Positions 3,959-62,139 are shown, counted from the first letter of the stretch. The stretch is DNA of 64,000 nt from Escherichia coli (GCF_044324785.1 NZ_CP172127.1); one strand, 5' to 3'. A program made the numbers and translations. The notes: generated from the letters alone by a model not told the origin.

Positions 3959-4800
3959 TGATGGACCATGTACTGGCACATATAAAAACTAGAGCAAAAA
4001 AACGCATTTTCAAATTGGTTTCTGATCAATCTCTTTTTGATACCGTCACAATCGACTTAAATGCCTGTATTCCATACAATCCAGACCATAACCTTGACGA
4101 AGACTCATGGTTTAAAATTGAAGACTTTAGTCAAAAAGAGTTTTGTATTGAACTGCTAAAAAAAGACTATGATTCAAAAGACTACGATGACTTAACCAAA
4201 GATAACTTCGCCAAGATCGCCTACTTATTTGCAATTCAAGGTAATGATTTTTACTTTCAAAAAATCACTCCAAGCCTATTCGTAAAACGCAAAACGCTTG
4301 TTTTTGGTGAAGCCGCAGAAATTGAGAAGAGCCAAACACGTTTAGTAATAAACGCCTTACCTGATGCAGTGTACTTCAAAGTGGCCGATACCTTGATATT
4401 CAAAAATCTGGCAACGATCTCGAGCATTTTTAAAGGTATCGATGAGTTGTACAAGGAAGCAACAAAAGAAGAAGTTGAGCAGTTTTTAGATGCACAGTTT
4501 ATAGAGTTGGGTAATGACTACAACGTAGATAGCGTCTCAAAACCTAATAGAAAACGTATTGGCCTTGCTATGGCAACACTTGATGCGATGTCTGCTGACG
4601 ATAAAGCTAACATGCTTGATTATATCGACGGTTACTGCGGTGAACAGAAGCTGAAATTCGATAAAGAAAATCAGAAGTTTGAAATATCTAATGACGATGA
4701 GTTGAAGTTACTGCTTTATGGCATTGAACAACGCTTCTATACGACCCCGTTTGGCAAAGAAAAAAGGCTCGCTAACTCTGTAACCGCTATGGATAAATAA
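3958..4800 (+). CDS. Soluble protein of unknown function (280 aa), second gene of candidate defence module (KwaB/DUF4868-like by architecture only)
   Basis: Start overlaps the upstream stop (TAATGATG); acidic, K/D/E-rich, no hydrophobic segments, no motif I recognise; AT-rich. Confidence 0.55.
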   Translation: MMDHVLAHIKTRAKKRIFKLVSDQSLFDTVTIDLNACIPYNPDHNLDEDSWFKIEDFSQKEFCIELLKKDYDSKDYDDLTKDNFAKIAYLFAIQGNDFYFQKITPSLFVKRKTLVFGEAAEIEKSQTRLVINALPDAVYFKVADTLIFKNLATISSIFKGIDELYKEATKEEVEQFLDAQFIELGNDYNVDSVSKPNRKRIGLAMATLDAMSADDKANMLDYIDGYCGEQKLKFDKENQKFEISNDDELKLLLYGIEQRFYTTPFGKEKRLANSVTAMDK

Positions 4801-4820
4801 TAGCCCATTATCAGTAACAT

Positions 4821-5870
4821 ATGAAGGTTGATTCAATGGCCGATAACATCCCACAAGCTCCTCAAGGTGAGTTTGTTCTTTTCACCAGTGCTGATGGTCA
4901 AACCCGCGTTGAGTGTCGTTTTGAGTCTGACACCTTGTGGCTTTCTCAGGCTGCAATGGCAGAGCTTTATCAAGTTAGCTCTCAAGCAATCACCCAACAC
5001 GTAAAAGCTGTCTATTCTGAAGAAGAGCTTGAGCAAATTTCAACTTGTAAGGATTACTTACAAGTTCAACTGGAAGGTGGCAGAGAAGTAAAGCGAAGCA
5101 TTCGTCACTACAGTCTTCCGGTTATTCTTGCAGTAGGATACCGAGTTCGCTCAACACGTGGCACCCAGTTCCGCCAATGGGCAACCAGAATGTTGCAAGA
5201 ATACCTAATCAAAGGATTCGTCATGGATGACGAGCGCCTGAAAAATCCGCCCATTGGCCATTCTGCTGTGCCAGATTACTTTGATGAAATGCTGGAACGC
5301 ATTCGTGATATCCGAGCTAGTGAGCGTCGCGTTTATCTGCGAGTCAAAGAAATCTTTACCATGGCTGCTGATTACGAGCCATCTAACCAAGAGACCAACC
5401 GCTTCTTCCAAACCATTCAGAATAAGCTGCATTATGCTTGTACGCATATGACGGCTGCTGAGCTTATCGCCAGCCGTGTGGATGCCAGTAAGCCGGATAT
5501 GGGCTTAACCAGCTATAAAGGCGATGAAGTGCGCAAGACAGACGTTACTGTTGCCAAGAACTATTTGCGTGAAGACGAAATCAAAGAGCTTAATCGCATC
5601 GTCAATATGTGGCTCGACTTTGCTGAAGACCAAGCACTGCGTCGCAAGCAGGTATTTTTACAGGACTGGGCCGATAAGCTTGACCAGTTCTTGAGTTTTA
5701 ACGATAGAGATGTATTAAACGGTGCAGGAAAAATCTCCAAGAAAGACGCTGATGACAAAGCGAAATTGGAGTTTGACCGCTTTGCCCAGCAGCGCCGTCG
5801 TTTAAAAGAAGCCGAAGGCGCACGGGCCAATATCGCAGCCCTCAAGGCCATACTAAAAAAAGATAAATAG
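4821..5870 (+). CDS. RhuM-family protein (alternative start at ATG 4836)
   Basis: N-terminal segment LFTSADGQTRVECRFESDTLWLSQAAMAELYQVSSQAITQHVKAVY matches the RhuM family N-terminal region as I recall it; 20 bp downstream of the preceding gene, same strand. Confidence 0.55.
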   Translation: MKVDSMADNIPQAPQGEFVLFTSADGQTRVECRFESDTLWLSQAAMAELYQVSSQAITQHVKAVYSEEELEQISTCKDYLQVQLEGGREVKRSIRHYSLPVILAVGYRVRSTRGTQFRQWATRMLQEYLIKGFVMDDERLKNPPIGHSAVPDYFDEMLERIRDIRASERRVYLRVKEIFTMAADYEPSNQETNRFFQTIQNKLHYACTHMTAAELIASRVDASKPDMGLTSYKGDEVRKTDVTVAKNYLREDEIKELNRIVNMWLDFAEDQALRRKQVFLQDWADKLDQFLSFNDRDVLNGAGKISKKDADDKAKLEFDRFAQQRRRLKEAEGARANIAALKAILKKDK

Positions 5871-14529: not shown

Positions 14530-15102
14530 TTACATTTCAGGTTGCGTTATGACAGTCCCAACAGGGTGGTAGCGGTAGATCGTTGACAGTCCAATATCAT
14601 AGATAATTGCCAGCCGCTTTCTGTCATACCCTTTCTGGAGCAATCTTGCGATCTGCTCATGCTGCTCCTTCGTCAGTTTCGGGCGACGTCCTCCAACTCT
14701 TCCTTGTGCTCGCGCAGCAGCCAGTCCTGCCAGCGTGCGCTCAACTATCAGTTCACGCTCCATTTCTGCCAGTGCACCCATCATATGAAAAAAGAACCTT
14801 CCCATCGGAGTGCTGGTATCGATTGAATCCGTCAGACTGCGAAAATTGACACCTTTTGCGCGTAGCTCTTCTGTGAGAGCAATGAGGTGTTTCATTCTTC
14901 TACCCAACCGATCCAGCTTCCAGACCACCAATGTATCCCCTCTTTTAAGGCACTTTAAAGCGCGTTTCAGGCCTGGTCGTTCCGACTTGGTTCCGCTCAT
15001 TTTGTCCTCAAAAATCTGTTCACATCCTGCGCACATTAATGCATTGCGTTGCAAATCTGTGTTTTGGTCATTTGTTGACACACGTATGTAGCCAATCAGC
15101 AT
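14530..15102 (-). CDS. pin: Site-specific DNA invertase, Hin/Gin/Pin serine recombinase family
   Basis: MLIGYIRVSTNDQNTDLQRNAL...GDTLVVWKLDRLGR...MGALAEMERELIVERT is the invertase catalytic domain plus C-terminal HTH; adjacent to tail-fibre cassettes. Confidence 0.9.
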   Translation of the reverse strand: MLIGYIRVSTNDQNTDLQRNALMCAGCEQIFEDKMSGTKSERPGLKRALKCLKRGDTLVVWKLDRLGRRMKHLIALTEELRAKGVNFRSLTDSIDTSTPMGRFFFHMMGALAEMERELIVERTLAGLAAARAQGRVGGRRPKLTKEQHEQIARLLQKGYDRKRLAIIYDIGLSTIYRYHPVGTVITQPEM

Positions 15103-15147
15103 TAAAAATACTCCCTTTTGAGTGGTTAAAGTACTGAGATAATGTGG

Positions 15148-15173
15148 GGAGGATTTGAGAGATAAACGTTGGT
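15148..15173. other. Putative invertase crossover site A (gix/pix-like), core AAACG-TT-GGTTT
   Basis: Core AAACGTTGGTTT at 15155-15166 at the start of the conserved ~200-bp fibre box; identical inverted core at 16779-16790. Confidence 0.45.
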
Positions 15174-15686
15174 TTAGGAGAAGGCTCGGCGCTACCCGTT
15201 GGTGTGCCTGTTCCGTGGCCCACCGCCACACCGCCAGCAGGCTGGTTAAAGTGCGACGGGCGCGCCTTTACAAAAGAACAATATCCTGTTCTGGCCAGAG
15301 TCTACCCGACCCTCCGTCTTCCCGATTTACGCGGTGAGTTTATCCGTGGATGGGACGACGGGCGCAAAGTTGATACAGGACGTAAGTTGCTGTCCGCACA
15401 AGGGGCAACGCTGTTAAGAACAGCAATGCTGGATTATTATAACCAGGACACTACGGGAACCTCGGGGATAGTCGGCATGGGATTCAACAATGAAGATTCC
15501 ATTACAGACCTTCGTGAGGGCAGCTTTAAAATGCCGGACGGGACAACATTCAGCGATCCTGTCGTGGCAATGTCAGACAATGGTATGCAGGCTACTATTC
15601 TGACCTCTATCAGAAGCGGGTATGCGAAGGGTATCACTGTCAGACCCCGTAGCATTGCACTTAATTACATTGTGAGGGCAGTTTAA
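15150..15686 (+). CDS. Tail-fibre C-terminal cassette 3 (start-less alternative variable domain)
   Basis: Frame opens after TGA at 15147-15149 with no ATG; encodes the conserved box GEGSALPVGVPVPWPTATPPAGWL...RGEFIRGWDDGRK then a unique C-terminus ending NYIVRAV. Confidence 0.7.
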
Positions 15687-16780: not shown

Positions 16781-16798
16781 ACCAACGTTTTTATGCGG
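16773..16798. other. Putative invertase crossover site B (inverted relative to site A)
   Basis: + strand AAACCAACGTTT at 16779-16790 is the reverse complement of the site A core. Confidence 0.45.
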
Positions 16799-34775: not shown

Positions 34776-36225
34776 AGAGAATGCGGGCCAGCCGTTCCTG
34801 CAGATCGTCCGTGTTCATCTGAGGGTAGAGCTCCGCCAGTTCGCCCAGCAGCTCAGACGGGTTAACCCCGTTTTCGACCCGCTTAAACAGAGGTGCCAGG
34901 ACGGGTTCCAGCGTGCCATTTAACACACCTCCGTTCATCAGAATGTCCAGCGCGTCGTCAAGCTGCTGCTGAGCCTGAATATCGGCATCAATCGCCTCGG
35001 CAAATGACAGCGGCAGCATGTTATTCTGGCGTTCCGACGGTGGTGTCTCGTCAATATCGCCGTCCTGCAGCTGGTACTCACGCTTAAAGTATTGCGGGGT
35101 CAGACGCAGACCCGCCCGGGTGAGTTTTTCGTCGCGGGTGGCGCGGGTGTCATCAATGGTCTCCTGTTCCCACATGGCCCAGACCGGACACGGCACATCG
35201 CCGAAGTTCAGGGTGACCACCGTTCTGATAACCTGATTCACTGCTGCCTGAATGATGTCCGCATCCGCATCGCGGATATCAGCCGTTACCTCCAGCCCGG
35301 CCTGTGCAGAGGCCTTGTTACTGTTCGCTTCCGTGGTCTGATTCTGACCAAGTAATGCAATGGAGATCTCACTGCGTGACAGTGTGATCAGCTCGCGGAA
35401 TACCTCGCTGCTGTCCGCCTTACCATCCGCGGCTTTGAGTTCGATGCTGCTGTCATCGGGGATGGCGGCCACCGCGTCCTCCACCATCTGCTCCATGGAG
35501 TCCAGCAGTTTTTCAATCTCTGCATCATTTGCACCCCTCGGGTGCTTACCGATCACCCACGGGGAGCCAAACTTTTCGGCAAAGCGGAGCCAGAATTTCA
35601 TCCCGCCTTTCTTGAAGGCGACCGGCCAGAAGCACATGGACAGGTCCGGGAAACCGTAAGGATTGTCATACGAGGCATCCTGTGCCGGCACCACGAATTT
35701 TGACGGTGACAGCAGCTCACCCTCCACACCCGCATCACGCGCCCGGAAGCGCAGGCAGTTGTCCGTATCAAACTGAAACCACTCAGGCGGTTTGCCGACA
35801 ATATCCGTCACTGCCCACGCCCTGACCGAACGGCCCCACATGATTTCACAGGGCTGATACCCGTAGAGCACGGCATCACTCATCTCACCGATGATGCGGG
35901 ACAGATCCAGATCGTCGAGCATGTCGCGGATGAAACGGAAGACCCGGGCAGAAGCGTGACCGCGCTCCAGTCCACGCTCCAGTGATTTGAGCGCTGCTTT
36001 ACGTCTGCGGATACAGCCCCCGACCAGCGGGTCGGTGCGCAGTTCGCGGTAGATACGGATATCCCGTCCCTGAGCCTTGAGAATGGGATCAGGATTGGGC
36101 AGATACATGCCCAGTCCGTAAAAGTCGATCGCGCGGCTGCGGGAGGCAATCTGCGCGGTCAGTGATTTCTGAGGCTCAGAAAAAGCAACAAATTCATCGG
36201 GTGAAACCCAGATACCCCTCGCCAT
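34729..36225 (-). CDS. Portal protein (Mu gp29-like)
   Basis: 498 aa directly after large terminase. Confidence 0.8.
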   Translation of the reverse strand: MARGIWVSPDEFVAFSEPQKSLTAQIASRSRAIDFYGLGMYLPNPDPILKAQGRDIRIYRELRTDPLVGGCIRRRKAALKSLERGLERGHASARVFRFIRDMLDDLDLSRIIGEMSDAVLYGYQPCEIMWGRSVRAWAVTDIVGKPPEWFQFDTDNCLRFRARDAGVEGELLSPSKFVVPAQDASYDNPYGFPDLSMCFWPVAFKKGGMKFWLRFAEKFGSPWVIGKHPRGANDAEIEKLLDSMEQMVEDAVAAIPDDSSIELKAADGKADSSEVFRELITLSRSEISIALLGQNQTTEANSNKASAQAGLEVTADIRDADADIIQAAVNQVIRTVVTLNFGDVPCPVWAMWEQETIDDTRATRDEKLTRAGLRLTPQYFKREYQLQDGDIDETPPSERQNNMLPLSFAEAIDADIQAQQQLDDALDILMNGGVLNGTLEPVLAPLFKRVENGVNPSELLGELAELYPQMNTDDLQERLARILFVANIWGRLHERDNG

Positions 36226-37748
36226 CAGAATCCCTCCAGCATACGGGCCGCCTGACGACGACGGCGTGAGCTTGCCTTCACCGGCCCTTTGTTAATTTCA
36301 CGGCTGGCGAAATACGCCAGCGCCAGTGCGATGGCTGAATCCCCGTGACGTTTACCACCATCAGCCTTTGCTTTTGAGCGTTGCTCCGGCACGCGGGGGA
36401 CACCGTTCACCACCTGAACGGCCCGCAGGTCATCCAGTGTGTCTTCATCCTTTGGTAAGTCCACCAGGTTACCGTCTTCCAGTGCAGCTTTGACCGGAGG
36501 CATATGCTCCCGGTACCAGCCTTCGGTTGGCATCACCTGCTGAACCCGGCCGGAGCCGTAGCGCTGCATGGCGTATTCAGCCAGATAGGCACCATTACCA
36601 CGGGCATCAAACGCTGCACCCAGCAGACCGGGCAGGCCATCCATCAGATACCAGGTGATTTGCTCCTGCTGCCTGAACGGCACGTTACGCAACTCCAGTA
36701 CGAATGGCACGCGTCGTATCAGGTTCTTCTCCTGCAACAACGGGTAGTCCACCGACAAATCCCCGCTACGGCCAAAGTCACGCCCCAGAAAAGAGCGGGC
36801 ACCAGCGGGGAGCGCCTCCAGTAATGGTTTCAGATGCTCATCAAGCCAGTCCTGCGTCTCGCGGAAGCGAACCTCATCAGACAGCAGTTCATAACCTTCC
36901 TTGCAGGTCAGACGCAATACCGGCGTATCAGCGGACATGCGGGACTCTATCAGGGCTCGGGACAGCCAGGCACCGCCACCGTTGGCCGGAATACAGTCAA
37001 GCTCTTCGGATGCACCGGCACCGTAGAATTTGTACACCGACGCCATCCAGGCCTGCTCGGATGCCTCCGACCATTCCTTCCCGGTGCGCAGACAAACGCG
37101 CCGGAACAGCCCCTCAGATACGGCTTCCCGGAAAGTGATGCGATGTACGCTGCCTCCCTGACGTCCGGCACGGATATCCCCGATAAGCGTATTGAACGGA
37201 TTGTCGTCACCGTCATGGGTGGAGATAACGCGTACCTTTCCCCCCCAGATAAGCATCGCCAGCGCCGCTTTCAGCAGTTCGTCCAGTTGCTCATGGAACG
37301 CCGCTTCGTCGATAACAATAATACCCTGACGGCCACGCAGGTTAGACGGGCGGCTGGAGAGCGCAACAATACGAAAGCCGGAGTCAGGAAATTTGATGGT
37401 GTAAGTCCTGATGTGTTTGTCGTCGTCGTCCTCTTCCCAGAATCCTTCTTCAATTTCACTGGCCGCATAGTTGAATGCCCGTGCCCACATCGCACACGCC
37501 TGAATGTATTCGACGGTCATGTCCTGGTTATAAGCGATGTAATACACATTCATCCCGCCTGCTGGCGCAGAAGAGGCGGCGGTCAGTACGTTATCGGATG
37601 CCTCAGCCCATGTAATACCGGTACGACGGCTCTTTTCTATCACCTTAAGCGGAGAGGCATCTGCCACCCAGCGCTGCTGGTAGGGCAACAGAACGGGAGG
37701 GGCCTTATAACTCGCGGTGTCAGGAATGTGCGGCGGCAGCTCCGTCAT
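36225..37748 (-). CDS. Terminase large subunit
   Basis: 507 aa with ATPase-like motifs (GIIVIDEAAF) and C-terminal nuclease region. Confidence 0.8.
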   Translation of the reverse strand: MTELPPHIPDTASYKAPPVLLPYQQRWVADASPLKVIEKSRRTGITWAEASDNVLTAASSAPAGGMNVYYIAYNQDMTVEYIQACAMWARAFNYAASEIEEGFWEEDDDDKHIRTYTIKFPDSGFRIVALSSRPSNLRGRQGIIVIDEAAFHEQLDELLKAALAMLIWGGKVRVISTHDGDDNPFNTLIGDIRAGRQGGSVHRITFREAVSEGLFRRVCLRTGKEWSEASEQAWMASVYKFYGAGASEELDCIPANGGGAWLSRALIESRMSADTPVLRLTCKEGYELLSDEVRFRETQDWLDEHLKPLLEALPAGARSFLGRDFGRSGDLSVDYPLLQEKNLIRRVPFVLELRNVPFRQQEQITWYLMDGLPGLLGAAFDARGNGAYLAEYAMQRYGSGRVQQVMPTEGWYREHMPPVKAALEDGNLVDLPKDEDTLDDLRAVQVVNGVPRVPEQRSKAKADGGKRHGDSAIALALAYFASREINKGPVKASSRRRRQAARMLEGF

Positions 37749-39563: not shown

Positions 39564-40301
39564 TTACGTACCCACACAGCTTGCCCCTCCCCATGAGAGA
39601 TAACGCGGGGCCAGCGTGAACAGGATGCGCTGGGGATAATGACGGTTCTCCCGCCAGCTGGCAGTGCTGCGTCCGGCATTCACCGTGGCGACATGACCAA
39701 ACCAGCGGGTGCTGTCCAGCCCTTTTTGTGATGCAAGCCGCCTGTCCCGCTGTACCCAGCCCAGACCACCGTTATAGCCCGACAGTGTCATGGCCATACG
39801 CTCGCAGTCACTGGCGGCGCTGACGCGCTGCCACAGCCAGCGGTCATAGCTGACCAGCGCCCGGATGGCCCATGCCGGATTAAATGGCTCACGGCTGTTA
39901 AGCCCCGGCATCAACTGACTTATCCAGTCGGCGGTGGCGGGCATGAACTGCGCCAGTCCCTGAGCGCCAACCGGCGAGATCGCATCAGGTCGCCAGCCGC
40001 TTTCCTGATGCAGTTGCGCAGCGAAATCAGCCACCGGCGCAGACAGTCCCCATTCAAGCCGGGCATTACGGATCACATCATCGCGATACTGCAGCGCTGC
40101 CTGCGGAGGCTGCGCTGCGCGGGCCTGACTGAAGAAGCCGCCACACCAGAGCAACATTGCGACAAAGAATACCCGTGCCATATGAACCAGAAAGGTCCCG
40201 GCGCGGACTGACAGGCGTTCGGTTCTGATGAAGACCCTAAAGGCTTCGAAAGCCAGTTTCAGGGACATGCATACAATCCAGGTGATCTGCGGCCAGTTCA
40301 T
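39564..40301 (-). CDS. Endolysin, lytic transglycosylase (SLT-domain) type, possibly signal-anchored
   Basis: SLT-like motif ...QLHQESGWRPDAISPVGAQGLAQFMPATADW...; hydrophobic N-terminal segment. Confidence 0.75.
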   Translation of the reverse strand: MNWPQITWIVCMSLKLAFEAFRVFIRTERLSVRAGTFLVHMARVFFVAMLLWCGGFFSQARAAQPPQAALQYRDDVIRNARLEWGLSAPVADFAAQLHQESGWRPDAISPVGAQGLAQFMPATADWISQLMPGLNSREPFNPAWAIRALVSYDRWLWQRVSAASDCERMAMTLSGYNGGLGWVQRDRRLASQKGLDSTRWFGHVATVNAGRSTASWRENRHYPQRILFTLAPRYLSWGGASCVGT

Positions 40302-40303
40302 GA

Positions 40304-40654
40304 TTAAAGCCCCATCGCAACAGCCAGACAGACCGCTGCAACAATCAGTGCACGGCGGATTAACGCAGCAGAAAACACCAGGTGAAGGCCGGTCTGTACC
40401 GGGAAACGCCCATCAGCCATCAGCCTGTCGTCATGTTTCAGGTACTGACCGGGACGGGCTTTGGGGAAGAGCGAACGGTCAAGCCAGTAACCCAGCACTG
40501 CTGCCAGCGTGATGAGTGCCAGCTTGTAGATCACAACAGGCAACTGCTGTGGCGAGACCAGAGCGATGGTGCCCAGCAACAGCACTGAGGTCAGCAGCCA
40601 GCCGCTGAGGCGAGGTTTTTTAACAGGGGGAATGAATTTTTTCAGGTTTTTCAT
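40304..40654 (-). CDS. Putative holin (small membrane protein, 2-3 TM helices)
   Basis: SD AGGAGA before ATG 40654; first gene of the late leftward operon, immediately upstream of the endolysin. Confidence 0.5.
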   Translation of the reverse strand: MKNLKKFIPPVKKPRLSGWLLTSVLLLGTIALVSPQQLPVVIYKLALITLAAVLGYWLDRSLFPKARPGQYLKHDDRLMADGRFPVQTGLHLVFSAALIRRALIVAAVCLAVAMGL

Positions 40655-40784
40655 GTGTGTCTCCTTGTCTGGTGGAGACAGCATCACAAATACAGGGCGC
40701 GAAGGATTTTAAAGCGCGTTAAGAGAGCCGGGGATACGGGATGTGCAGGATAAACGATGAATTATTCACAGAGGAGAATACGAT

Positions 40785-41528
40785 ATGACGCAGACACTGA
40801 ATCCGGTCATCACTGTCACCGTGTCCGGTCCTGTGGGCAGCGGTAAAAGTTACATATTGGCGCGGATAGAGGAAGTGGTGAAACAGGAATTCGGGGGCAG
40901 CGTCATTGTCGATGCTGCAGACGTAGATGATGAGCGGCGTATGAGTGGCGATGATCTGACGACCTGGCAGAAGCCACGGGGTGGCACAGTGATCAGGCTG
41001 GAGGAATACACGGGACAGGGCCTGTTGTCATACGGCGAGGAGCGTATCTGTCGGACGAATGAGCTGCTGGATGTTATATGCCCCACGGGCCGGCAACCCT
41101 GGATACTGCCCGATGCACTGCATGCCACCATTGCGGCACTGATGACAGTTTACGATCAGGAGCTGCTCATGAAGGAGCTACGTAAACTCACCGGTCAGCC
41201 AACAGAATGTTTTTCTGCCCCGAAGTACGGGAAACAGGAACACATCCCGGTGAACACGCTCCCCGTTAACCAGCCTCCCCGGTTCTTCGACGAATACATT
41301 CTGACACCGGAAAATAAAGCTGAGCACGAAGAGATCAAAGCGGCGTTGTTCCGGGAAATCAGGAAGATTGCTGAAATGCAACTGGGGGGCGGGCTGGACA
41401 GAGTGATGGCGAGAGGAGAATGGGAGTCGCTGTTTGAAAGAGTTTCCCCGGAATTACTTCCCCTCGCACTGGCTATCGGGATTATGCAGACAGCGGATAA
41501 ACCTCACTTACGTTCATTAAACACGTAA
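40785..41528 (+). CDS. P-loop NTPase-like protein of unknown function (247 aa)
   Basis: Walker A GPVGSGKS at residues 15-22, rest without recognisable motif; SD GAGGAG 8 nt upstream. Confidence 0.5.
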   Translation: MTQTLNPVITVTVSGPVGSGKSYILARIEEVVKQEFGGSVIVDAADVDDERRMSGDDLTTWQKPRGGTVIRLEEYTGQGLLSYGEERICRTNELLDVICPTGRQPWILPDALHATIAALMTVYDQELLMKELRKLTGQPTECFSAPKYGKQEHIPVNTLPVNQPPRFFDEYILTPENKAEHEEIKAALFREIRKIAEMQLGGGLDRVMARGEWESLFERVSPELLPLALAIGIMQTADKPHLRSLNT

Positions 41529-41908
41529 CGCATAATCCGGGATACGCATTCAGCGATGACTGCATTTTCACCGGTTTTTACTGCATCCAGAAGTGACTCT
41601 TTAAATGGTGCGGGCCGGGGCTGCAGAAGGGTCGGCGTGGCATTGAGCAGACGGAGCGTTTTTTCCGTGAGGACGACATCAGCCGCTCCCACAGCCAGCA
41701 ACTGAGAGTAACGAATATAGCTGTTATCCCGAAGCCATATCAGCGTATCAATAAAATACCGGCACTTTTTCTGGTCGTGATCAACCTGGTCCGGGATATC
41801 GAAAAAACCAGAATAAATCAAAACCTGAGGTGCCGGATGCGTGTTCAGTAATCGGCAGAATATTTTGCCGGTGAGTGCATAAAAATCATCATTTAAGGAG
41901 TGCATCAT
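41504..41908 (-). CDS. Hypothetical protein (134 aa)
   Basis: ORF whose ATG (41906-41908) overlaps the divergent ATG of the next gene (41907). Confidence 0.4.
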   Translation of the reverse strand: MMHSLNDDFYALTGKIFCRLLNTHPAPQVLIYSGFFDIPDQVDHDQKKCRYFIDTLIWLRDNSYIRYSQLLAVGAADVVLTEKTLRLLNATPTLLQPRPAPFKESLLDAVKTGENAVIAECVSRIMRYVFNERK

Positions 41909-42122
41909 GAATCCCCGATTAACGTTAACAGAACATCAGCGCCGTGCTGAAGCAGTGAACAATGTTCTGGAAGATATTATCCGGTTACATCGCGGAGAAC
42001 TGAGTGTCTGTCGTGCCGCTTTTCATTTTCAGGGAATACAAAAGCAGTTTGATACTTCTGTTTTTGCAGAAGGTATTACTTATGCCCTGGACCGGATAAG
42101 GTCAGAAAATCGCCCCGGATAA
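41907..42122 (+). CDS. Hypothetical small protein (71 aa)
   Basis: SD AAGGAG 6 nt upstream of ATG. Confidence 0.4.
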   Translation: MNPRLTLTEHQRRAEAVNNVLEDIIRLHRGELSVCRAAFHFQGIQKQFDTSVFAEGITYALDRIRSENRPG

Positions 42123-42313
42123 TCCCTAAACCACATTAACAGAAATCCCACTATCCCTGCCGCATCATGAAAGAACGACCAGCCCGGTGCTTCGGACCCA
42201 CCGGGCTGGCCATCGTCCCACAGAAGTGGCTGTGAGCCGACCGAGGTTCAGTCAGTCTCGCGAGACCAGACTAGCCTGCCATATTTTTAATAATTGTAAA
42301 AGGCTTACAGATT

Positions 42314-43078
42314 ATGAAAATGAAGACATTACCCATCGTTCCATGGATTGGTGGCAAACGTCGCCTGGCAAAACACATCCTGCCGCTGTTTCCGGCGCAT
42401 GAATGTTATGTGGAGCCGTTTTGTGGGGCAGCAGCGCTCTATTTTCTTAAGACACCCGGCAAGATCGAAGTCATCAATGATATCAACGGTGAACTGGTGA
42501 ATCTGTACCGGGTGGTAAAGCATCACCTGGAAGAATTTGTCCGCCAGTTCAAATGGGCGCTGGTCAGCCGTCAGATCTACAAATGGCTGCAGATCACCCC
42601 GGAAGAAACACTGACGGATATCCAGCGTGCGGCACGGTTCTACTACCTTCAGAAGCAGGCGTTTGGCGGCAAGGTGGCAGAGCACAGCTTCGGTACCTCC
42701 ACCACATCCCCGCCACGCTTCAACCTGCTGCGTATTGAAGAAGAACTGTCAGCAGCACACCTGCGGCTTTCCAGAACAGTCATAGAACACATGGACTGGC
42801 AACAGTGCATTGAGCGTTATGATCGTCCGCACACACTGTTCTACTGCGACCCACCGTACCTGGGTACGGAAGGCTATGGTGTGGATTTTCCTGAAGGGAA
42901 CTACTCGCGGCTGGCAGAGCTGGCCCGGTGCATCAGAGGAAAAATGATAATTTCGGTGAACGATATCCCACAGATGCGCGAGGTGTTCACTGGACTGAAC
43001 ATACAGACAGTGAACATCAACTACAGTCTGGCGGGGAAATCTACGCCGCGCCGTGAACTGGTAATCTGCAACTTCTGA
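42314..43078 (+). CDS. DNA N6-adenine methyltransferase (Dam-like)
   Basis: N-terminal WIGGKRRLAKHILPLFP and catalytic DPPY motif (YCDPPYLG). Confidence 0.85.
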   Translation: MKMKTLPIVPWIGGKRRLAKHILPLFPAHECYVEPFCGAAALYFLKTPGKIEVINDINGELVNLYRVVKHHLEEFVRQFKWALVSRQIYKWLQITPEETLTDIQRAARFYYLQKQAFGGKVAEHSFGTSTTSPPRFNLLRIEEELSAAHLRLSRTVIEHMDWQQCIERYDRPHTLFYCDPPYLGTEGYGVDFPEGNYSRLAELARCIRGKMIISVNDIPQMREVFTGLNIQTVNINYSLAGKSTPRRELVICNF

Positions 43079-43085
43079 AACAAAA

Positions 43086-43108
43086 CCGGAAAGCACAATG
43101 CTTTCCGG
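43086..43108. terminator. Bidirectional hairpin between dam-like gene and repressor gene
   Basis: Perfect 9-bp stem CCGGAAAGC/GCTTTCCGG with 5-nt loop; T-rich run on the minus-strand side. Confidence 0.45.
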
Positions 43109-43194
43109 TAAACCAAACAACTTCCACTATGTCACTGGCGATGTTTTCTGAAAGCATCCAGATCAACCACCTGTCCTTTGTGTCCAGGTCAAAA

Positions 43195-43533
43195 TCAGCC
43201 TGCGAGTTTGCTTGGTTTGGGTTGAATGAAGACTTTGCCGACCTCAAGAATTGCCCTCCGTTGTTCGGGGCTCATTTCGTCGAATGCATCCATTAACTCT
43301 TTCTTTTCTTGTGACACATAAGGTGCAACAACAGGCTGACTCCGCACCCCAGTAACTACATACAAAATATCTACACCGATTTCTGATAGTGCAGATAACT
43401 GCACTGCAGTAGGAGAAGTGCGATCTTTTTCCCAATCAATGAAAGTTCTCTTTGCCACACCTATAGCATCAGCCAACCCTTGCTGTGTAAGAGATAGACG
43501 CTCTCTTTCTTCTTTAATACGTAACCCGATCAT
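43195..43533 (-). CDS. Phage repressor, HTH XRE/cI-type
   Basis: MIGLRIKEERERLSLTQQGLADAIGVAKRTFIDWEKDRTSP is a canonical XRE HTH; divergent from the early operon. Confidence 0.7.
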   Translation of the reverse strand: MIGLRIKEERERLSLTQQGLADAIGVAKRTFIDWEKDRTSPTAVQLSALSEIGVDILYVVTGVRSQPVVAPYVSQEKKELMDAFDEMSPEQRRAILEVGKVFIQPKPSKLAG

Positions 43534-43557
43534 GTGAGTTTTTCTGCACTCTTTAAG

Positions 43558-43586
43558 TTGACTGGTGAGGTAATCTGCACCATAAT
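43558..43586 (+). promoter_or_regulatory. Putative sigma70 early promoter with overlapping repressor operators
   Basis: -35 TTGACT (43558-43563), 17-bp spacer, -10 CATAAT (43581-43586); direct repeat TCTGCAC at 43543-43549 and 43574-43580. Confidence 0.4.
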
Positions 43587-43633
43587 CTATCACACATAAG
43601 GCAAACATCATTGCATCAACAAAGGAGACAACG

Positions 43634-43822
43634 ATGACTGCAGAACAAGTCAAAGCTCTCTTCCGCCAGCGCGGGATCACTTTCACCCGCTGGGCAGAAG
43701 AAAACGGCTACAACCGCAATGAGGTATACCGCGTTCTCAATGGGCAGACCAAAGCCCGTTACGGTAAATCCCATGAAATCGCCGTGAAGTTGGGGCTGAA
43801 ATCAACAGCTCAGGCAGCCTGA
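43634..43822 (+). CDS. Small DNA-binding protein (Ner-like position)
   Basis: 62 aa basic protein, first gene of the rightward early operon, divergent from repressor. Confidence 0.4.
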   Translation: MTAEQVKALFRQRGITFTRWAEENGYNRNEVYRVLNGQTKARYGKSHEIAVKLGLKSTAQAA

Positions 43823-43868
43823 AGATTTTGAGTCTTTGTAAAAGGTTATCACATATCGCAAAAGAGGT

Positions 43869-44183
43869 ATGCAGATGAGTAAGACGAATGTTTCAAGCTC
43901 CGGCAGTCGCATCCTCCGGGTACTCAAAGCGCTGCGCGGTCATGCCCTGAACGGTATTTCCAACGGTGAACTGGCGGCAGCACTGCACGAGTCACCGGCA
44001 AACATCAACCGGGCACTCAACACCCTCATTGAAGAAGGGTTGGCCCTGAAACTGGAAAACGGGCGTTTCGCGCCGGGCATCCAGTTACTGCAGATCGCTA
44101 TGGCCCACAGTAACGAGATGGCACGTGCACAGGATCGCATTAACGAAATCAACCAACGTGTCATTTCAGGTAGTCGTTTGTAA
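43869..44183 (+). CDS. Putative winged-helix DNA-binding regulator (104 aa)
   Basis: ILRVLKALRGHALNGISNGELAAALHESPANINRALNTLIEEGL resembles a wHTH. Confidence 0.4.
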   Translation: MQMSKTNVSSSGSRILRVLKALRGHALNGISNGELAAALHESPANINRALNTLIEEGLALKLENGRFAPGIQLLQIAMAHSNEMARAQDRINEINQRVISGSRL

Positions 44184-44193
44184 GGAGTAATAA

Positions 44194-45105
44194 ATGGGAC
44201 GCACCAAATCACCGATTAACACTGAACTGAACGCCGAGGTACCGCTGTCGGATGATCTCAATGTCAGTCTGAACGCCATGACACAGCATCGTATGGAGAT
44301 CATGCAGCAGTTTGGCGATGGTCAGCCCTATGAGCGTGATCGCATAGTTCATGAGGCTCGGTTTTATATGGCACAGAGCGCTGAGGCCATGCTGGAAGCA
44401 GGTAAACGACTTATTATTCTCAAAGAAAATGAACCTCACGGGGACTTTGTTGGAATTGTAGAAGAACAACTTGGTCTGCATGTGCGCGCAGCACAACGAA
44501 TGATGAAAGCATCTTTGAAATACCTTTCACCAAAACTAGAGCCAAAAGCGACAACGTTGTCGCTTTTAGGTAAGGCAAAATTATTTGAACTTGTTGCTGA
44601 AGATGACGACGACCTTGCTGAACTGGCCGACGGTGGCACAGTTGCCGGACTGACGCTTGACGATGTTGATCGCATGTCAGTACGTGAATTGCGTCAGGCC
44701 CTGCGCGAAGCGCGCGAAACCAACGCAGCACAACAGCGCGTACTCGCCGACAAAAATGAAAAAATAGACTCACTCTCCACCAGACTGGAGAAGAAATCCC
44801 GTATTCAGCCACCTGAGCCTGATGAAGAGGTGAAGAAACTGCGGGCAGAAGTGACCGCGTTAGCGGTTGAGGCGGAATCTGCCATCGCCGTTCGACTGTC
44901 CAGCGCTTTTGAGACGCTGTGCGCATATTGTGCTGAAAACATGATTGATACCCCCAGAGACTTCATGGCAGGCCTGGTCTGTCAACTGGAAAGCACAGCG
45001 CGTAGCCTGCGCTCCACATTTGACCTGCCGGACGAGCCAACAGGCAATGCAGCGCCTTCATGGCTGACTGAGCCGACGCCACAGATTAACGGGCTGGAGG
45101 CATAA
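44194..45105 (+). CDS. Hypothetical early protein (303 aa), possibly DUF3102-like
   Basis: Acidic, coiled-coil-rich; located just upstream of transposase A. Confidence 0.4.
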   Translation: MGRTKSPINTELNAEVPLSDDLNVSLNAMTQHRMEIMQQFGDGQPYERDRIVHEARFYMAQSAEAMLEAGKRLIILKENEPHGDFVGIVEEQLGLHVRAAQRMMKASLKYLSPKLEPKATTLSLLGKAKLFELVAEDDDDLAELADGGTVAGLTLDDVDRMSVRELRQALREARETNAAQQRVLADKNEKIDSLSTRLEKKSRIQPPEPDEEVKKLRAEVTALAVEAESAIAVRLSSAFETLCAYCAENMIDTPRDFMAGLVCQLESTARSLRSTFDLPDEPTGNAAPSWLTEPTPQINGLEA

Positions 45106-45108
45106 CCA

Positions 45109-46878
45109 ATGAATGCTGCCCTGACTGAACGACTGGTTTATGTCGCCCGCGCGGCACGTGACGCGGGGCATGGTAAACGCGGCGCAGTATACGACGCTGC
45201 CTGTGCTGAACTTGGCATGTCCCGCGCCACTCTGCTGCGCAGGCTGAAGGAGGTATCTGTGACTGATAAACGCAAAAAACGCGCCGATGCCGGGCGCAGC
45301 GCCCTGACCCGCGACGAAGCCGCGCTGATATCTGCCACACTGCGTGAGGCCACCCGCAAGAACGGTAAGCGTCTCTATTCCATCGCGGATGCAGTGGAAA
45401 CCCTGCGGGCTAACGGCTTTATATCCGCAGGCAGAACAGATGAAACCACCGGTGAGTTTTTCCCGTTGTCCGAAGATGCCATCAGCCGAGCCCTGCGTAA
45501 CTATGGCCTGCACCCGGAACAACTGGATGCCCCTGCGCCGCATACCGAAGTGGCCAGTCTGCATCCCAATCATGTCTGGCAGATTGACGCCTCACTCTGC
45601 ACGCTTTACTACCTGAGCAATGGACATAAAGGGCTGCAGGTGATGGACAGCGCGAAGTTCTACAAGAACAAGCCCGCTAACCTTGCCCGTATCGCCAGTG
45701 ACCGCGTGTGGAGTTACGAGATTACCGACCATGCCAGCGGCTGGATTTACGTTGAGTATGTGACGGGCGCGGAATCAGGTGAGAACCTGTGTTCTGTGCT
45801 TATCAACGCCATGCAGGAGCGTGGCGGCGCAGACGTGCTGCACGGTGTGCCGAAAATACTCTATCTCGACCCCGGCTCGGCAAACACCGCGGGTATGACG
45901 AAAAACATGTGCCGCTCACTGGGCATCGACCTGATAGCGCACAAGCCGCATAACGCCCGCGCCACCGGACAGGTGGAAAAGGCGCGGGACATTATCGAAC
46001 GCAAGCTGGAGCCGGGTCTGAAGTTCCGGCCGGTTCACAGTCTGGAAGAACTCAACGCGCTGGCCGCGAAATGGCGCAGCCACTTTAACGCCACGGCTGT
46101 TCACAGCCGCCACGGTAAAACCCGCACGGATATCTGGCTGAAGATTACTGCTGAGCAGCTGAAAAAAGCGCCTTCCGTTGAGGTATGTCGTGAACTGGCT
46201 GTGGCGGCACCAGAACTCCGCAAAGTCACGCCAAAACTTCGTGTCTCGTTCCGGGGCACTGAATTTGACGTATCAACGGTACCGGGCGTACTGGTTGGTG
46301 AAAAACTGATGATTACCCGTAACCCGTGGCGCAGCGATGTGGCACAGGTGGTTCTGACCGGTGAGGACGGCCACGAGACGTTCTTCCTGGTCGAAGAGGT
46401 CAGAAAGAACGAGTTTGGCTTTGCTGAAGGCGCGGCGGTATTTGGCGAAAGTTACAAAGCCCTGCCGGAAACCCCGGCGCAGATGGCGGCAAAAGAAACC
46501 GAAGCGCTGGTCACCGGTACAGACAACGCCGCAGATGCAGCTGCCGCACGCAAGGCGAAGGCGCTGCCGTTCGGCGGGCGGCTTGACCCGTATAAACATA
46601 TCGACGACACCACACTTCCGGCCTATATGCCGAAGCGTGGTCAGGCCTCTGACGTACGCGGGCCGCGCACTGAACAACGTCCCATGACTTATGTGGAGGC
46701 CGCGAAAGCCCTGCGCGATAAGTTCAGCGCCAACGGCTTTACCTGGACGCTGGAACATTACCGCCAGTTAACGGCACAGTATCCGGACGGCGTACCGGAA
46801 GCCGCACTGGATGAAGTCATGGCCACGCTGACCACGCCGGCCCGCAGCAGCGTTATCAGTATTGTTAACGGCAACTGA
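45109..46878 (+). CDS. Mu-type DDE transposase (A protein)
   Basis: 589 aa with integrase-core region (HVWQIDASL...) followed by the B-like ATPase gene. Confidence 0.8.
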   Translation: MNAALTERLVYVARAARDAGHGKRGAVYDAACAELGMSRATLLRRLKEVSVTDKRKKRADAGRSALTRDEAALISATLREATRKNGKRLYSIADAVETLRANGFISAGRTDETTGEFFPLSEDAISRALRNYGLHPEQLDAPAPHTEVASLHPNHVWQIDASLCTLYYLSNGHKGLQVMDSAKFYKNKPANLARIASDRVWSYEITDHASGWIYVEYVTGAESGENLCSVLINAMQERGGADVLHGVPKILYLDPGSANTAGMTKNMCRSLGIDLIAHKPHNARATGQVEKARDIIERKLEPGLKFRPVHSLEELNALAAKWRSHFNATAVHSRHGKTRTDIWLKITAEQLKKAPSVEVCRELAVAAPELRKVTPKLRVSFRGTEFDVSTVPGVLVGEKLMITRNPWRSDVAQVVLTGEDGHETFFLVEEVRKNEFGFAEGAAVFGESYKALPETPAQMAAKETEALVTGTDNAADAAAARKAKALPFGGRLDPYKHIDDTTLPAYMPKRGQASDVRGPRTEQRPMTYVEAAKALRDKFSANGFTWTLEHYRQLTAQYPDGVPEAALDEVMATLTTPARSSVISIVNGN

Positions 46879-55426: not shown

Positions 55427-56621
<1,195 letters not shown>

Positions 56622-60051: not shown

Positions 60052-62139
60052 TCAGAACTGATAGTTCAGCGACATCCAGTAATTTCTCTCAGGTATCACA
60101 TAACCCGTTGTCGATGCCCCCGTCTGGAAGTAATCACCCGCATAAAGCGTACCACTGCCGGCACGATACAGACTTACGTCACTGTAATCCTTGTTAAGCA
60201 CATTATTCACCGCTGCATTCAGCATCAGTGCATCCGTCACTTTCCACGACATGCCCGCATCCAGTACCGTCCAGGCTTTCAGATATTCACCTTTCTCATC
60301 ATACACTTTCTTCTGTACAGCTGAGAGTGACGAATAATTCTGGGTGAAACGTGGCGTTTTCCCGCGGTAACGGGCACCCAGCCATGATGTCACCTCTTCA
60401 GTAATCTGCCAGTTCAGTTTCGCATTCACCATATGCTCAGGGGTGTAACTCAGTGGTGCACCTTTATTATCCCCATCCCGTTGTTCACTCTGCGTCCAGG
60501 TATAATTCAGAGACAGAGTCACATCCTCTGACAACAGAGGCAGTGTGCCGGCAAATTCCACGCCCTGAGTCCTAGCCTTTCCGCTGTTTGTGTAGCTGCG
60601 GGTATTATCATCAATGGAATAAGATACGATCTTGTTGGAGAATTCTGTCATAAAGCCCGTGATATTGGCGTTCAGACCGGCATGATTATCGTAATACACG
60701 CCCGCTTCATAACTGACACTCTCCTCCGGCTTCAGGTCCGGGTTACCGAGAAGATTCGTACGCCCCTGACCGGACACACCGCTGATCCCCTTATGTAACT
60801 GCCCCATGCTGGGCGCCTTATATCCCGTGGTCACCCCACCTTTCAGCGTCCACGCATCAGTCACATCCCAGACCATATATGCCCGGGGACTGAAGTGTCC
60901 TCCGAACACCTCATAGCGTTCATAGCGGCTACCCGCAGTCAGTGCAAATGCATCCGTGATATACCACTCATCCTCAACAAATGCCGACCAGCTTTTCTGA
61001 CGGAAGGTTTCACCAGTACTGGCGAGAACAACCCCGTCTTTCATGGAGGAGTTCTGATACTCACCACCGACGGTAACCTTGTGTGATTCCCCCAGAGGTG
61101 CAAACAGTAATGAGCTCAGGATAAGATTCGACTCCTTAAGCTCCCTCGGCTGGCCGGCAAGCCCCCATTTATCACGCTGCAGTACGCTACGTACAAGCTG
61201 ACGGCCTTTATTTTCCGTCTCATTCCAGTTCAGAGATGACTTCCAGGCTCCGAAGGTGAATGTATGATCATAGCCTGCTGAAATTTTATTACGCTCATAG
61301 CGCAGGGTGCGATCATAACCGCCCGTCAGACTGCCCAGCTGGCCATCTCGGTTATCATAACGCTGCCGGGCGATATCCATATCAATCCAGAGTACATCCT
61401 TGTCCGTCGCTTTCCAGTCAAGACGACCACCTGCATTATAATTCTGTGATTCCGTGGGATAAGGGATACGCGTAGCTGAGGTGTCGCTCAGTGATGTGAC
61501 CGATGAGCCCTGACGCTGCTGTGTGCTGCCACGTACCTGAAGGCTGAGTGAATCATCCACAAGGGGACCGCTGCTCCAGAAATTAAACTGGCTGCTGTTC
61601 CCCCATTTGTTACTTTCCTGCAGGTTCAGCCCGGCATTAACCGAAGAGCGCCATTTGTCTGCATTCTTTTTGGTGATGATATTCACCACGCCCCCCATGG
61701 CATCAGAGCCGTACAGAGTGGACATGGGGCCCCTGATAATCTCAATACGTTCGATGGCGGCCAGAGGTGGCATAAAACCCGTATTCATGGCAGCATAACC
61801 GTTTGGGGTTACGTCACTGCTCCCGCCCTGACGGACACCATCGATCAGTATCAGCGTATAACTGGCAGGCATTCCGCGGATGCTGATTTCCAGCCCACCT
61901 GTTTTACCCGTACCGCTTTCAACATCCACCCCCTCTACGGATCTCAGTGCCTCCCCCAGATCATGATACTGGCTGGATCGCAAATCCTCCTGGCTGATCA
62001 CTGAAACACTCGCAGCTGCACTGGTTAATTTTTTTTCATAGCCAGACGCCGTGACTACCATCACATCTTCCGCAGCCATACTGCTGACTGAAAACCCGAG
62101 ACAAGGGATGGCTACTGAAGCCAGAGTGGTTACTCGCAT
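60052..62139 (-). CDS. TonB-dependent outer-membrane siderophore receptor, IrgA/Iha-like (695 aa)
   Basis: Signal peptide, plug-domain motifs ([26 protein letters not shown]), C-terminal aromatic residue (..NYQF); Fur box upstream. Confidence 0.8.
   Translation of the reverse strand: [695 protein letters not shown]

What the first reader, a model, noticed from the sequence alone, without database searches (positions are those of the whole stretch)
40688..42122. Unassigned cargo between the late and early arms: P-loop protein and two genes with overlapping divergent start codons
At the switch region, where Mu-like phages typically carry accessory genes, a 247-aa protein has only an N-terminal Walker A (GPVGSGKS) and an otherwise unrecognisable body. 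It is followed by a head-to-head pair (41504-41908 minus, 41907-42122 plus) whose ATGs overlap by 2 nt, an unusually tight divergent arrangement that implies coupled regulation. These are candidates for an anti-defence or abortive-infection/toxin module.
Basis: partly seen in the sequence, partly recalled or inferred. Interest (0 to 1): 0.55.

Follow-up and report, generated by a model that had tools for sequence, protein, structure and literature searches.

The report
Prophage cargo: start-sharing gene pair
A 1.4-kb accessory insert in a common E. coli Mu-like prophage holds a modular protein with a mini phosphate-loop domain, plus a portable two-gene cassette (a winged-helix protein and a small helical protein) whose opposite-strand start codons share two bases in every relative found; the function is still unknown.

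Summary
The three ORFs, the Walker A motif and the 2-nt CAT/ATG overlap are all at the stated coordinates, and RefSeq annotates all three genes.

The window holds a BcepMu-like transposable prophage of E. coli. Relative to "empty-site" prophages, 40726-42166 is an insertion between the holin and the dam leader.

The three genes form two units, not one module.
- **gpA (247 aa).** It has a conserved ~75-aa N-terminal mini P-loop domain and a mosaic, unrecognisable C-terminal part. In two other BcepMu-like prophages a gpA-like gene sits alone before dam.

The most likely reading is a regulator plus small-effector cassette with face-to-face promoters, like the TF-smORF modules. A repressor-specific antirepressor role is disfavoured: identical cassettes sit beside three different repressors in Serratia.

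No toxin, defence or anti-defence assignment is supported. I rate it a new variant of a known kind, of moderate interest.

The parts
40726..42166 (.). Accessory insert (gpA, gpB, gpC) relative to empty-site relatives
   Evidence: Homology with L080 and KP12 (L002) stops at 40721-40725 on the holin side and resumes at 42167-42170 on the dam side. In L080 the two flanks are 32 nt apart.
40785..41528 (+). gpA, 247 aa: N-terminal mini P-loop domain plus a mosaic helical C-terminal part (phrog_3787, unknown function)
   Evidence: Only residues 1-75 are shared with most of the 55 representative clusters. The C-terminal modules recur shuffled in relatives, and one occurs alone as an 89-aa Serratia protein.
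40785..41009 (+). Conserved N-terminal domain of gpA (residues 1-75), with Walker A GPVGSGKS at nt 40827-40850
   Evidence: pLDDT is 93-97. G20 and K21 are invariant in 22 relatives. The profile matches only the beta1-Walker A-alpha1 segment of ABC ATPases, kinases, PilT and UreG, and designed phosphate-loop proteins, with E 5e-5 to 1e-2.
41504..41908 (-). gpB, 134 aa, winged-helix protein (phrog_2266, unknown function)
41907..42122 (+). gpC, 71 aa, three-helix small protein (phrog_4490, unknown function)
   Evidence: The model has three helices at pLDDT 68-82. The Serratia homologue is 29-30% identical. It is unrelated to the P2-type partner family phrog_2454.
41906..41909 (.). CATG: the two start codons share the central AT
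   Evidence: Read. The same arrangement is found in 57 loci.
41504..41528 (.). 25-nt convergent 3' overlap of gpA and gpB
   Evidence: The Serratia counterparts overlap by 37 nt.
41853..41870 (.). Near-perfect 18-bp palindrome CGGCAGAAT/ATTTTGCCG inside gpB codons 13-19, 37-54 nt upstream of the gpC ATG; a candidate operator (inferred)
   Evidence: (I1) and the sequence. It is partly retained in Serratia (L018 6034-6055). The palindromy partly follows from the conserved GKIFCR codons.
42170..42313 (+). Structured leader belonging to the dam unit (right flank of the insert)
   Evidence: It is conserved together with dam in L082, L018, L080 and L002. Fold z-score is -4.07.
42314..43078 (+). Dam-family adenine methyltransferase (flank; co-directional with gpA and gpC)
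   Evidence: TIGR00571 117 bits, above the cut-off. phrog_56.
40304..40687 (-). Holin, first gene of the leftward lysis/late arm (left flank)
   Evidence: phrog_1528 holin, E 8e-55.
43085..43109 (.). Terminator-like hairpin (11 pairs, scored on the minus strand) between the convergent dam and repressor genes

Best explanation
The interval is a 1.44-kb accessory insert in the hot spot between the lysis genes and the dam/immunity region of a BcepMu-like transposable prophage. It contains two independent units.

**Unit 1, gpA.** gpA is the resident first rightward gene of this phage group and is normally followed directly by dam. Its conserved ~75-aa phosphate-loop mini-domain probably acts as a phosphate, nucleotide or nucleic-acid binding or assembly handle rather than as a complete NTPase. 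It is fused to exchangeable helical modules that probably set target specificity. This step is inferred and of low confidence.

**Unit 2, gpB/gpC.** This is a portable regulator plus small-effector cassette.
- gpB is a winged-helix protein, probably dimeric and DNA-binding, that acts on the shared 5' control region.
- gpC is the small helical output protein, and it is matched to the phage lineage.
- Because the start codons share two bases, each gene's Shine-Dalgarno sequence, 5' UTR and promoter must lie inside the first codons of the other gene.
- The two promoters therefore face each other and the two mRNAs are complementary at their ribosome-binding sites.
- That arrangement should make expression of the two genes mutually dependent or mutually exclusive, through promoter occlusion or transcriptional interference and 5' antisense pairing. 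gpB would tip the balance.

**Shown:** gene reality, the gpB fold, the geometry and its conservation, mobility between phage types, and accessory status.

**Inferred:** DNA binding, promoter positions, the direction of regulation, and the target of gpC.
For: **Insert boundaries and slot variability.**

**gpA goes with dam.** gpA-like genes lie directly upstream of dam in two other BcepMu-like prophages that lack gpB/gpC.

**gpA is modular.** The N-domain alone is conserved across 55 representative clusters, and the C-terminal modules are mosaic.

**gpB fold.** Winged helix.

**The pair is conserved.**
- It occurs with CATG start sharing in 57 loci from two unrelated temperate phage groups.
- gpB-like proteins all fall in phrog_2266. 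The partners fall in two unrelated families, phrog_4490 and phrog_2454 (hhalign probability 0.1%).
- Both genes are under purifying selection in P2-like loci, with omega 0.12 and 0.22 over 156 comparisons.
- Both genes have Shine-Dalgarno sequences lying in the other gene's first codons.

**Hints of embedded control elements.**
- Third-codon-position variability is lower in the first ~16 codons and in codons ~33-48 of gpB-like genes, and in the first 8 codons of the partner.
- An 18-bp palindrome lies 37-54 nt upstream of gpC.
- No consensus sigma-70 promoter is found at the junction, which fits factor-dependent promoters.

**Published precedent.** TF-smORF modules have homologous transcription factors that activate divergently transcribed, sequence-unrelated small proteins (PMC10432266).
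Against: - No promoter, transcript or DNA-binding evidence is available.
- gpB-like proteins of the P2 type are acidic (pI 4.7), and the recognition helix is not the most conserved part. The invariant residues cluster in LTEKxLxxLN and AxKxG. The winged helix could therefore bind protein or RNA rather than DNA.
- The gpB model rests on only 18 sequences, and four of the five models were poor.
- Within E. coli, gpB shows omega of about 1, although on only 6-8 differences. Internal gpB deletions with intact gpC exist.
Confidence: 0.4

Rival explanations
1. gpB/gpC is a TF-smORF induction module in the strict sense. gpB activates gpC, and gpC is a non-proteolytic antirepressor that inactivates the prophage's immunity repressor, giving an SOS-independent route to induction.
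For: - It has the same logic and layout as the published modules: a transcription factor beside a divergently transcribed 50-70-aa protein, with homologous TFs and unrelated smORFs, on temperate phages (PMC10432266).
- The partner family changes with the phage lineage.
- In P2-like phages the pair lies beside DinI-like genes near cos. From my own knowledge, that is the region where the antirepressor gene tum of phage 186 lies.
Against: - In Serratia, 100% identical gpB and gpC homologues lie beside three different immunity repressors: 116 aa, an unrelated 163 aa, and a 137-aa protein with a different HTH.
- The published TFs are XRE or LuxR type, not winged helix.
- gpB-deleted variants persist.
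Confidence: 0.15
2. The pair, or the whole insert, is a prophage-encoded defence or superinfection-exclusion system acting against other phages.
For: - Both locations are recognised or evident cargo hot spots. One is the gpA-gpQ, cos-proximal hot spot of P2-like phages, which is rich in defence systems (PMC9122126). There the pair is flanked by retron-RT-like, Fic and other cargo.
- The other is the variable holin-repressor slot.
- The pair is present in 498 of 5,426 complete E. coli genomes.
Against: - PADLOC gave no hit for gpB or gpC, and only insignificant ones for gpA.
- There is no enzymatic, membrane or toxin domain.
- In P2-like loci the pair is the conserved border element next to the variable cargo, not the variable part itself.
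Confidence: 0.15
3. gpC (and the P2-type partner) is a small anti-defence or host-modulating effector, and gpB is its Aca-like autoregulator that limits its expression.
For: - A conserved HTH-type regulator is paired with interchangeable small proteins.
- The neighbouring dam methylase is itself a classical self-protection gene.
- Among the E. coli variants gpC shows higher omega (0.3-0.7) than dam or holin, and gpA's C-terminal part is mosaic.
Against: - From my own knowledge, acr-aca pairs are normally co-directional operons.
- Only two partner families were seen, each tied to one phage lineage, rather than the many-partner pattern typical of acr loci.
- No known anti-defence family could be tested here.
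Confidence: 0.12
4. The pair is a toxin-antitoxin or addiction module.
For: It consists of two small genes, one with a DNA-binding-type fold, on a mobile element. Deletions remove gpB but keep gpC, which would fit gpB as the toxin and gpC as the antitoxin.
Against: - The genes are divergent rather than in an operon.
- There is no toxin domain in Pfam, NCBIfam or PADLOC.
- A winged helix is an unlikely toxin.
Confidence: 0.06

Closest known systems
TF-smORF prophage induction modules (Silpe et al., Nature 2023, PMC10432266)
   Same: A transcription-factor gene lies next to a divergently transcribed gene for a ~50-70-aa protein with no recognisable domain, on temperate phages. The TFs are homologous between phages while the small proteins are unrelated. 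The module occurs at different genomic positions in different phages.
   Different: Here the regulator-like protein is a winged helix with no Pfam family, and the hosts are Enterobacterales prophages of Mu-like and P2-like type. The two genes share start-codon bases instead of being separated by a promoter region. The same cassette sits beside three different repressors, which argues against a repressor-specific antirepressor.
Face-to-face promoter switches of P2-like phages (P2 C/Cox; 186 CI/Apl with pR/pL transcriptional interference); comparison from my own knowledge
   Same: Two divergent genes have promoters that point at each other, so the transcripts overlap at their 5' ends and expression of one interferes with the other.
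   Different: In those switches the coding regions do not overlap, and both products are DNA-binding regulators of the lysis-lysogeny decision. Here the coding regions abut at a shared CATG and one partner is an exchangeable small helical protein. The cassette is accessory.
Minimal phosphate-loop proteins (designed P-loop prototypes such as PDB 6c2u; de novo ATPase 9jix) and the Walker A segment of ABC or kinase NTPases
   Same: The gpA N-domain profile aligns to the beta1-GxxGxGK[ST]-alpha1(-beta2) element.
   Different: The natural domain is only about 70 aa. It has no conserved Walker B acidic residue and gave no structural match to NTPases. It is fused to variable helical modules.
T7 gp5.5 (H-NS inhibitor), proposed by the annotators of phage Midge for the gpB homologue (HHpred 91%, note)
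   Same: Both are small phage accessory proteins.

Membership tests
P-loop NTPase (gpA) | Walker A motif GxxxxGK[ST] after a beta strand | tested here: met
   GPVGSGKS at residues 15-22. G20 and K21 are invariant in 22 relatives. The profile matches the Walker A segments of many NTPases.
P-loop NTPase (gpA) | Conserved Walker B acidic residue at the end of a hydrophobic strand | tested here: not met
   gpA has VIVD (residues 40-43), but the aligned position is D, E, S, C or T, or is gapped, in relatives.
P-loop NTPase (gpA) | Complete alpha/beta core (about 150 aa or more) with structural similarity to known NTPases | tested here: not met
P-loop NTPase (gpA) | Nucleotide binding and hydrolysis | not testable with these tools
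   Needs biochemistry.
Winged-helix (wHTH) DNA-binding regulators (gpB) | Winged-helix fold | tested here: met
Winged-helix (wHTH) DNA-binding regulators (gpB) | Sequence membership in a named family (MarR, PadR, or DUF2513 as labelled for the Serratia homologue) | tested here: not met
   No Pfam hit for any of the 18 family members, including the Serratia protein. No NCBIfam hit.
Winged-helix (wHTH) DNA-binding regulators (gpB) | Sequence-specific DNA binding at its own control region | not testable with these tools
   There is only a candidate palindrome at 41853-41870. The pI ranges from 4.7 to 7.7 across the family.
TF-smORF induction module | TF gene adjacent and divergent to a small ORF on a temperate phage | tested here: met
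TF-smORF induction module | Homologous TFs paired with sequence-unrelated small proteins | tested here: met
   phrog_2266 is paired with phrog_4490 or phrog_2454. hhalign probability between the two partner families is 0.1%.
TF-smORF induction module | The small protein is specific for the cognate immunity repressor | tested here: not met
   This is an indirect test. Identical gpC and gpB homologues sit beside three different repressors in Serratia L018, L019 and L020.
TF-smORF induction module | The TF activates the smORF promoter, and the smORF induces the prophage | not testable with these tools
   Needs reporter and induction assays.
Type II toxin-antitoxin | Two genes co-transcribed as an operon | tested here: not met
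   The genes are head-to-head on opposite strands.
Type II toxin-antitoxin | Recognisable toxin domain | tested here: not met
   No hit in Pfam, NCBIfam or PADLOC.
Known anti-phage defence systems (PADLOC-DB v2) | A significant match of any component to a defence-system model | tested here: not met
   gpB and gpC gave no hit at E <= 0.1. gpA gave only mad8 at E 0.0046 (14.5 bits) and SngB at E 0.028. dam matches methyltransferase models, as expected.

The most novel reading that the evidence does not exclude
The gpB/gpC cassette may be a previously undescribed class of portable prophage switch. A conserved winged-helix sensor-regulator and an interchangeable small output protein are locked together by sharing start-codon bases. 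Their face-to-face promoters and complementary ribosome-binding sites would then form a compact bistable element. The element would decide a lysogen-level phenotype, such as induction, exclusion or control of neighbouring hot-spot cargo, independently of the immunity repressor.
Probability: 0.2. Interest if true: 0.7.

Novelty: new variant of a known kind. Interest (0 to 1): 0.45.

Why it matters
The cassette is carried by about 9% of complete E. coli genomes (498 of 5,426), including ST131 strains and strain 83972, and by many P2-like prophages of Klebsiella, Salmonella and E. coli. All of its proteins are still "hypothetical".

If the start-sharing geometry encodes a switch, it would be an unusually compact regulatory design. 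It would also extend the TF-small-protein logic, so far shown in linear plasmid-like phages of Vibrio and Aeromonas, to the main temperate phage families of enterobacteria.

The gpA family offers a natural example of a ~70-aa phosphate-loop domain used as a module. That bears on ideas about minimal P-loop proteins.

If the cassette proves to be only a regulator of neighbouring cargo, the finding is ordinary.

Tried and rejected
**Direct assignment of the three proteins.** PHROGs returned only unknown-function families. NCBIfam, PADLOC, Pfam and PDB sequence searches returned nothing usable.

**The DUF2513 label.** UniRef labels the Serratia gpB homologue DUF2513. Pfam scans of all 18 family members did not reproduce it.

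**The T7 gp5.5 link.** The similarity noted by the Midge annotators was not reproduced.

**RNA families.** Rfam found nothing in 40000-44500.

**Wider distribution.**
- The species-representative genome scan found only two further loci, in Escherichia sp. and Rosenbergiella.
- The plasmid search found three records.
- The weak homologue in Nitratiruptor phage NrS-1 has no divergent partner and was not pursued.

**Promoters.** Sigma-70 consensus scans found no promoter at the gene junction in E. coli, Midge or ST147-VIM1phi7.1.

**Literature.** Searches by protein accession and PHROG number found no paper.

**One three-gene module.** I rejected this reading because gpA-like genes occur without the pair, and the pair occurs without gpA.

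Full report
**Setting**

The window is E. coli chromosome carrying a Bcepmuvirus-like transposable prophage.
- The segment 40300-43200 is 100% identical to many complete E. coli genomes and occurs in 635 of 5,426 genomes. It is 96.6% identical to Escherichia phage PhiKM, which is classified as a Bcepmuvirus.
- The late arm runs leftward. It comprises the terminase at 36225-37748, a DUF3486 small terminase, spanin-like genes, an SLT endolysin at 39564-40301 and the holin at 40304-40687.
- The early arm runs rightward from the Ner-like gene at 43634, through an IclR-like HTH gene, to the transposase at 45109-46878.
- Between the two arms lie the three genes of the finding, a Dam methylase (42314-43078) and the immunity repressor (43195-43686, minus strand).

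**Check of the observation**

All three ORFs are present at the stated coordinates, and PGAP annotates them as hypothetical proteins.
- The Walker A motif GPVGSGKS is residues 15-22 of the 247-aa protein, here called gpA.
- The 134-aa gene (gpB, minus strand) and the 71-aa gene (gpC, plus strand) start at CAT 41906-41908 and ATG 41907-41909. They therefore share two bases within a CATG.
- Each has a Shine-Dalgarno sequence, and each Shine-Dalgarno sequence necessarily lies inside the first codons of the other gene.
- gpA and gpB also overlap convergently by 25 nt.

**The interval is accessory cargo**
- Homology to related prophages ends at 40721-40725 on the holin side and resumes at 42167-42170, the start of a ~145-nt structured dam leader. 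In E. coli O78 strain 3 (L080) the two flanks are only 32 nt apart. The insert is therefore 40726-42166, almost exactly the interval of the finding.
- Other E. coli prophages of this type carry different genes in the holin-repressor slot (L079, L081). So does Klebsiella phage KP12.
- BcepMu itself has other genes there.
- Among 50,697 phage records, gpA and gpC occur only in PhiKM.
- None of the three proteins has any replication or packaging assignment.

**gpA**
- The word-indexed search found close homologues only in E. coli.
- The exhaustive HMMER search found 55 representative clusters. Nearly all of them match only residues 1-75.
- The sequences show a conserved module: xITVTVSGPxGSGKSxVLAxI...IIDAP...W.KPRSGTIFKLEE. 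It is either free-standing (75-90 aa) or followed by very different C-terminal parts built from recurring, shuffled segments.
- Some of those segments match other unknown-function PHROGs.
- The last ~60 residues of gpA occur alone as an 89-aa protein at the same position in a Serratia prophage.
- In two other BcepMu-like prophages a gpA-like gene (255 or 364 aa) lies between the holin and dam with no gpB/gpC. gpA therefore belongs with dam rather than with the pair.
- A profile of the N-domain matches only the beta1-Walker A-alpha1(-beta2) segment of ABC ATPases, kinases, PilT and UreG, and designed phosphate-loop proteins (E 5e-5 to 1e-2).
- The putative Walker B aspartate is not conserved. 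No Pfam domain appears in any of 22 long relatives.
- I conclude that gpA carries a phosphate-loop mini-domain, not a complete P-loop NTPase. Its function remains inferred only from its modularity and position.

**gpB and gpC form a conserved, mobile pair**
- In Serratia BcepMu-like prophages, a 53%-identical gpB homologue and a ~30%-identical gpC homologue lie between dam and the holin in the same head-to-head arrangement, again with CATGATG at the junction.
- gpB homologues of ~31% identity occur in P2-like phages: Midge, ST147-VIM1phi7.1 and FSL SP-004. Each is paired head-to-head with a 63-64-aa gene whose annotated start overlaps by 2 nt.
- A scan of IMG/VR brought the total to 57 loci with a CATG-linked pair, giving 33 distinct gpB-like and 35 distinct partner proteins.
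- All gpB-like proteins fall in phrog_2266. The partners fall in two families, phrog_4490 (BcepMu type) and phrog_2454 (P2 type), with no detectable relationship (hhalign probability 0.1%).
- In the P2-like loci both genes are under purifying selection, with median omega 0.12 and 0.22 over 156 comparisons. Both are therefore real coding genes.
- The family is confined to Enterobacterales prophages.
- In E. coli the pair is present in 498 genomes and nearly complete in 491 of them.

**What the pair looks like**
- No sequence family fits. Neither the DUF2513 label nor the T7 gp5.5 similarity could be reproduced.
- gpC models as three helices.
- The invariant residues of the gpB family lie mainly in LTEKxLxxLN after the wing and in AxKxG...VIA near the C-terminus, rather than in the recognition helix.
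- The pI varies from 4.7 to 7.7 across the family. DNA binding is therefore likely but not assured.

**How it most likely works**

Because the start codons share bases, the promoter, 5' UTR and ribosome-binding site of each gene must lie within the other gene.
- The promoters must therefore face each other, and the two mRNAs must be complementary over their ribosome-binding sites.
- Such an arrangement is expected to couple the two genes through promoter occlusion, transcriptional interference and antisense pairing.
- The geometry survives both ~70% divergence of gpB and replacement of the partner by an unrelated gene. That argues the geometry itself is functional.

The supporting signals are weak.
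- Third-position variability is lower in the first ~16 codons and in codons ~33-48 of gpB-like genes, and in the first 8 codons of the partner.
- An 18-bp palindrome lies at 41853-41870, 37-54 nt upstream of gpC, and is partly kept in Serratia.
- No consensus sigma-70 promoter is present at the junction, which would fit factor-dependent promoters.

The closest published logic is the TF-smORF module of linear plasmid-like phages. There a transcription factor activates a divergently transcribed small protein, and that protein inactivates the cI repressor. The TFs are homologous while the small proteins are unrelated (PMC10432266).

**Why I do not file it as such a module**
- Three Serratia prophages carry 100% identical gpB and gpC homologues next to three different immunity repressors. 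A repressor-specific antirepressor should co-vary with its target.
- Variants with an internal gpB deletion and intact gpC also exist.
- Within E. coli, gpB shows omega near 1, although on only 6-8 substitutions.
- I therefore commit only to the broader regulator plus small-effector reading (0.4). I list the strict antirepressor, defence, anti-defence and toxin-antitoxin readings as rivals.

**Context bearing on the rivals**
- In P2-like loci the partner side is conserved (the portal side). The DNA just 3' of the gpB-like gene is highly variable: retron-RT-like plus HTH, Fic, DinI-like and others, followed by the replication gene A.
- This is the gpA-gpQ, cos-proximal defence hot spot described by Rousset et al. 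(PMC9122126).
- The pair is thus a border element of cargo hot spots in two phage families. That is compatible with a role in controlling or insulating cargo, and also with being cargo itself.
- PADLOC gives no support for a known defence system.

**Verdict**
- The anti-defence or toxin interpretation is unsupported, and the three genes are two units.
- The pair is an uncharacterised variant of the regulator plus small-protein cassettes of temperate phages. Its start-codon-sharing design is unusual and strictly conserved.
- gpA is a modular protein with a minimal phosphate-loop domain.
- Interest is moderate (0.45).

Noticed in passing
window 42170-42313: The ~145-nt dam leader is conserved with dam in all relatives and is strongly structured (MFE -58 kcal/mol, z -4.07). 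A minus-strand promoter-like site (42320->42293) and a terminator-like hairpin (42198->42181) could give a ~100-nt RNA antisense to the dam leader.
   Followed up: partly
window 41910-41933 and 42121-42144; L079 5436-5481: A 24-nt imperfect direct repeat (75%) brackets gpC. The segment 42103-42145 also occurs right after a truncated gpA-like gene in another E. coli prophage. This may be a recombination joint of the mosaic cassette.
   Followed up: partly
L079, L080, L081 (E. coli), L002 (Klebsiella phage KP12): The same holin-repressor slot holds other unassigned cargo. Examples are a 401-aa protein plus a nucleoid-associated protein, a DUF2441 protein, and 193/203-aa plus 328-aa genes co-directional with the repressor.
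   Followed up: no
L018, L019, L020 (Serratia prophages): Nearly identical late arms and identical gpB/gpC cassettes are joined to three different immunity regions. One of these includes a 132-aa lipoprotein-like gene. This is clear immunity-region mosaicism.
   Followed up: partly
L036-L078 (P2-like prophage loci), about 100-2500 nt 3' of the gpB-like gene: The cargo varies and includes a ~303-aa retron-type-RT-like protein with an XRE HTH partner (11 loci), DinI-like genes and a ~363-aa protein; a Fic protein lies in the same position in phage FSL SP-004 (L024). This fits the published P2 defence hot spot.
   Followed up: no
window 43195-43686: The listed repressor ORF (GTG start, 163 aa) is probably too long. 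The Serratia homologue aligns from about residue 48. A start at Met52 (43533) would leave a 100-nt repressor/ner intergenic region containing the sigma-70-like site 43558-43586, TTGACT-17-CATAAT.
   Followed up: partly
window 168-5870: An HsdR-like 1078-aa protein (below the family cut-off) is followed by three unassigned ORFs of 184, 280 and 349 aa in a low-GC stretch. This may be a defence island outside the prophage.
   Followed up: no
window 14530-15231; 55459-56475; 60052-62139: A serine invertase (Mpi/XisF-like) lies about 1.6 kb from the large minus-strand ORFs that begin at 16791, outside the high-GC prophage stretch. There is also an IS5-family transposase and a TonB-dependent receptor.
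   Followed up: no
L084, L090, L092: Distant members of the gpA N-domain family lie in co-directional gene arrays of what look like other, non-Mu-like phages. They sit next to DUF7941 genes or next to a dCTP-deaminase/HD-domain nucleotide-metabolism cluster.
   Followed up: no
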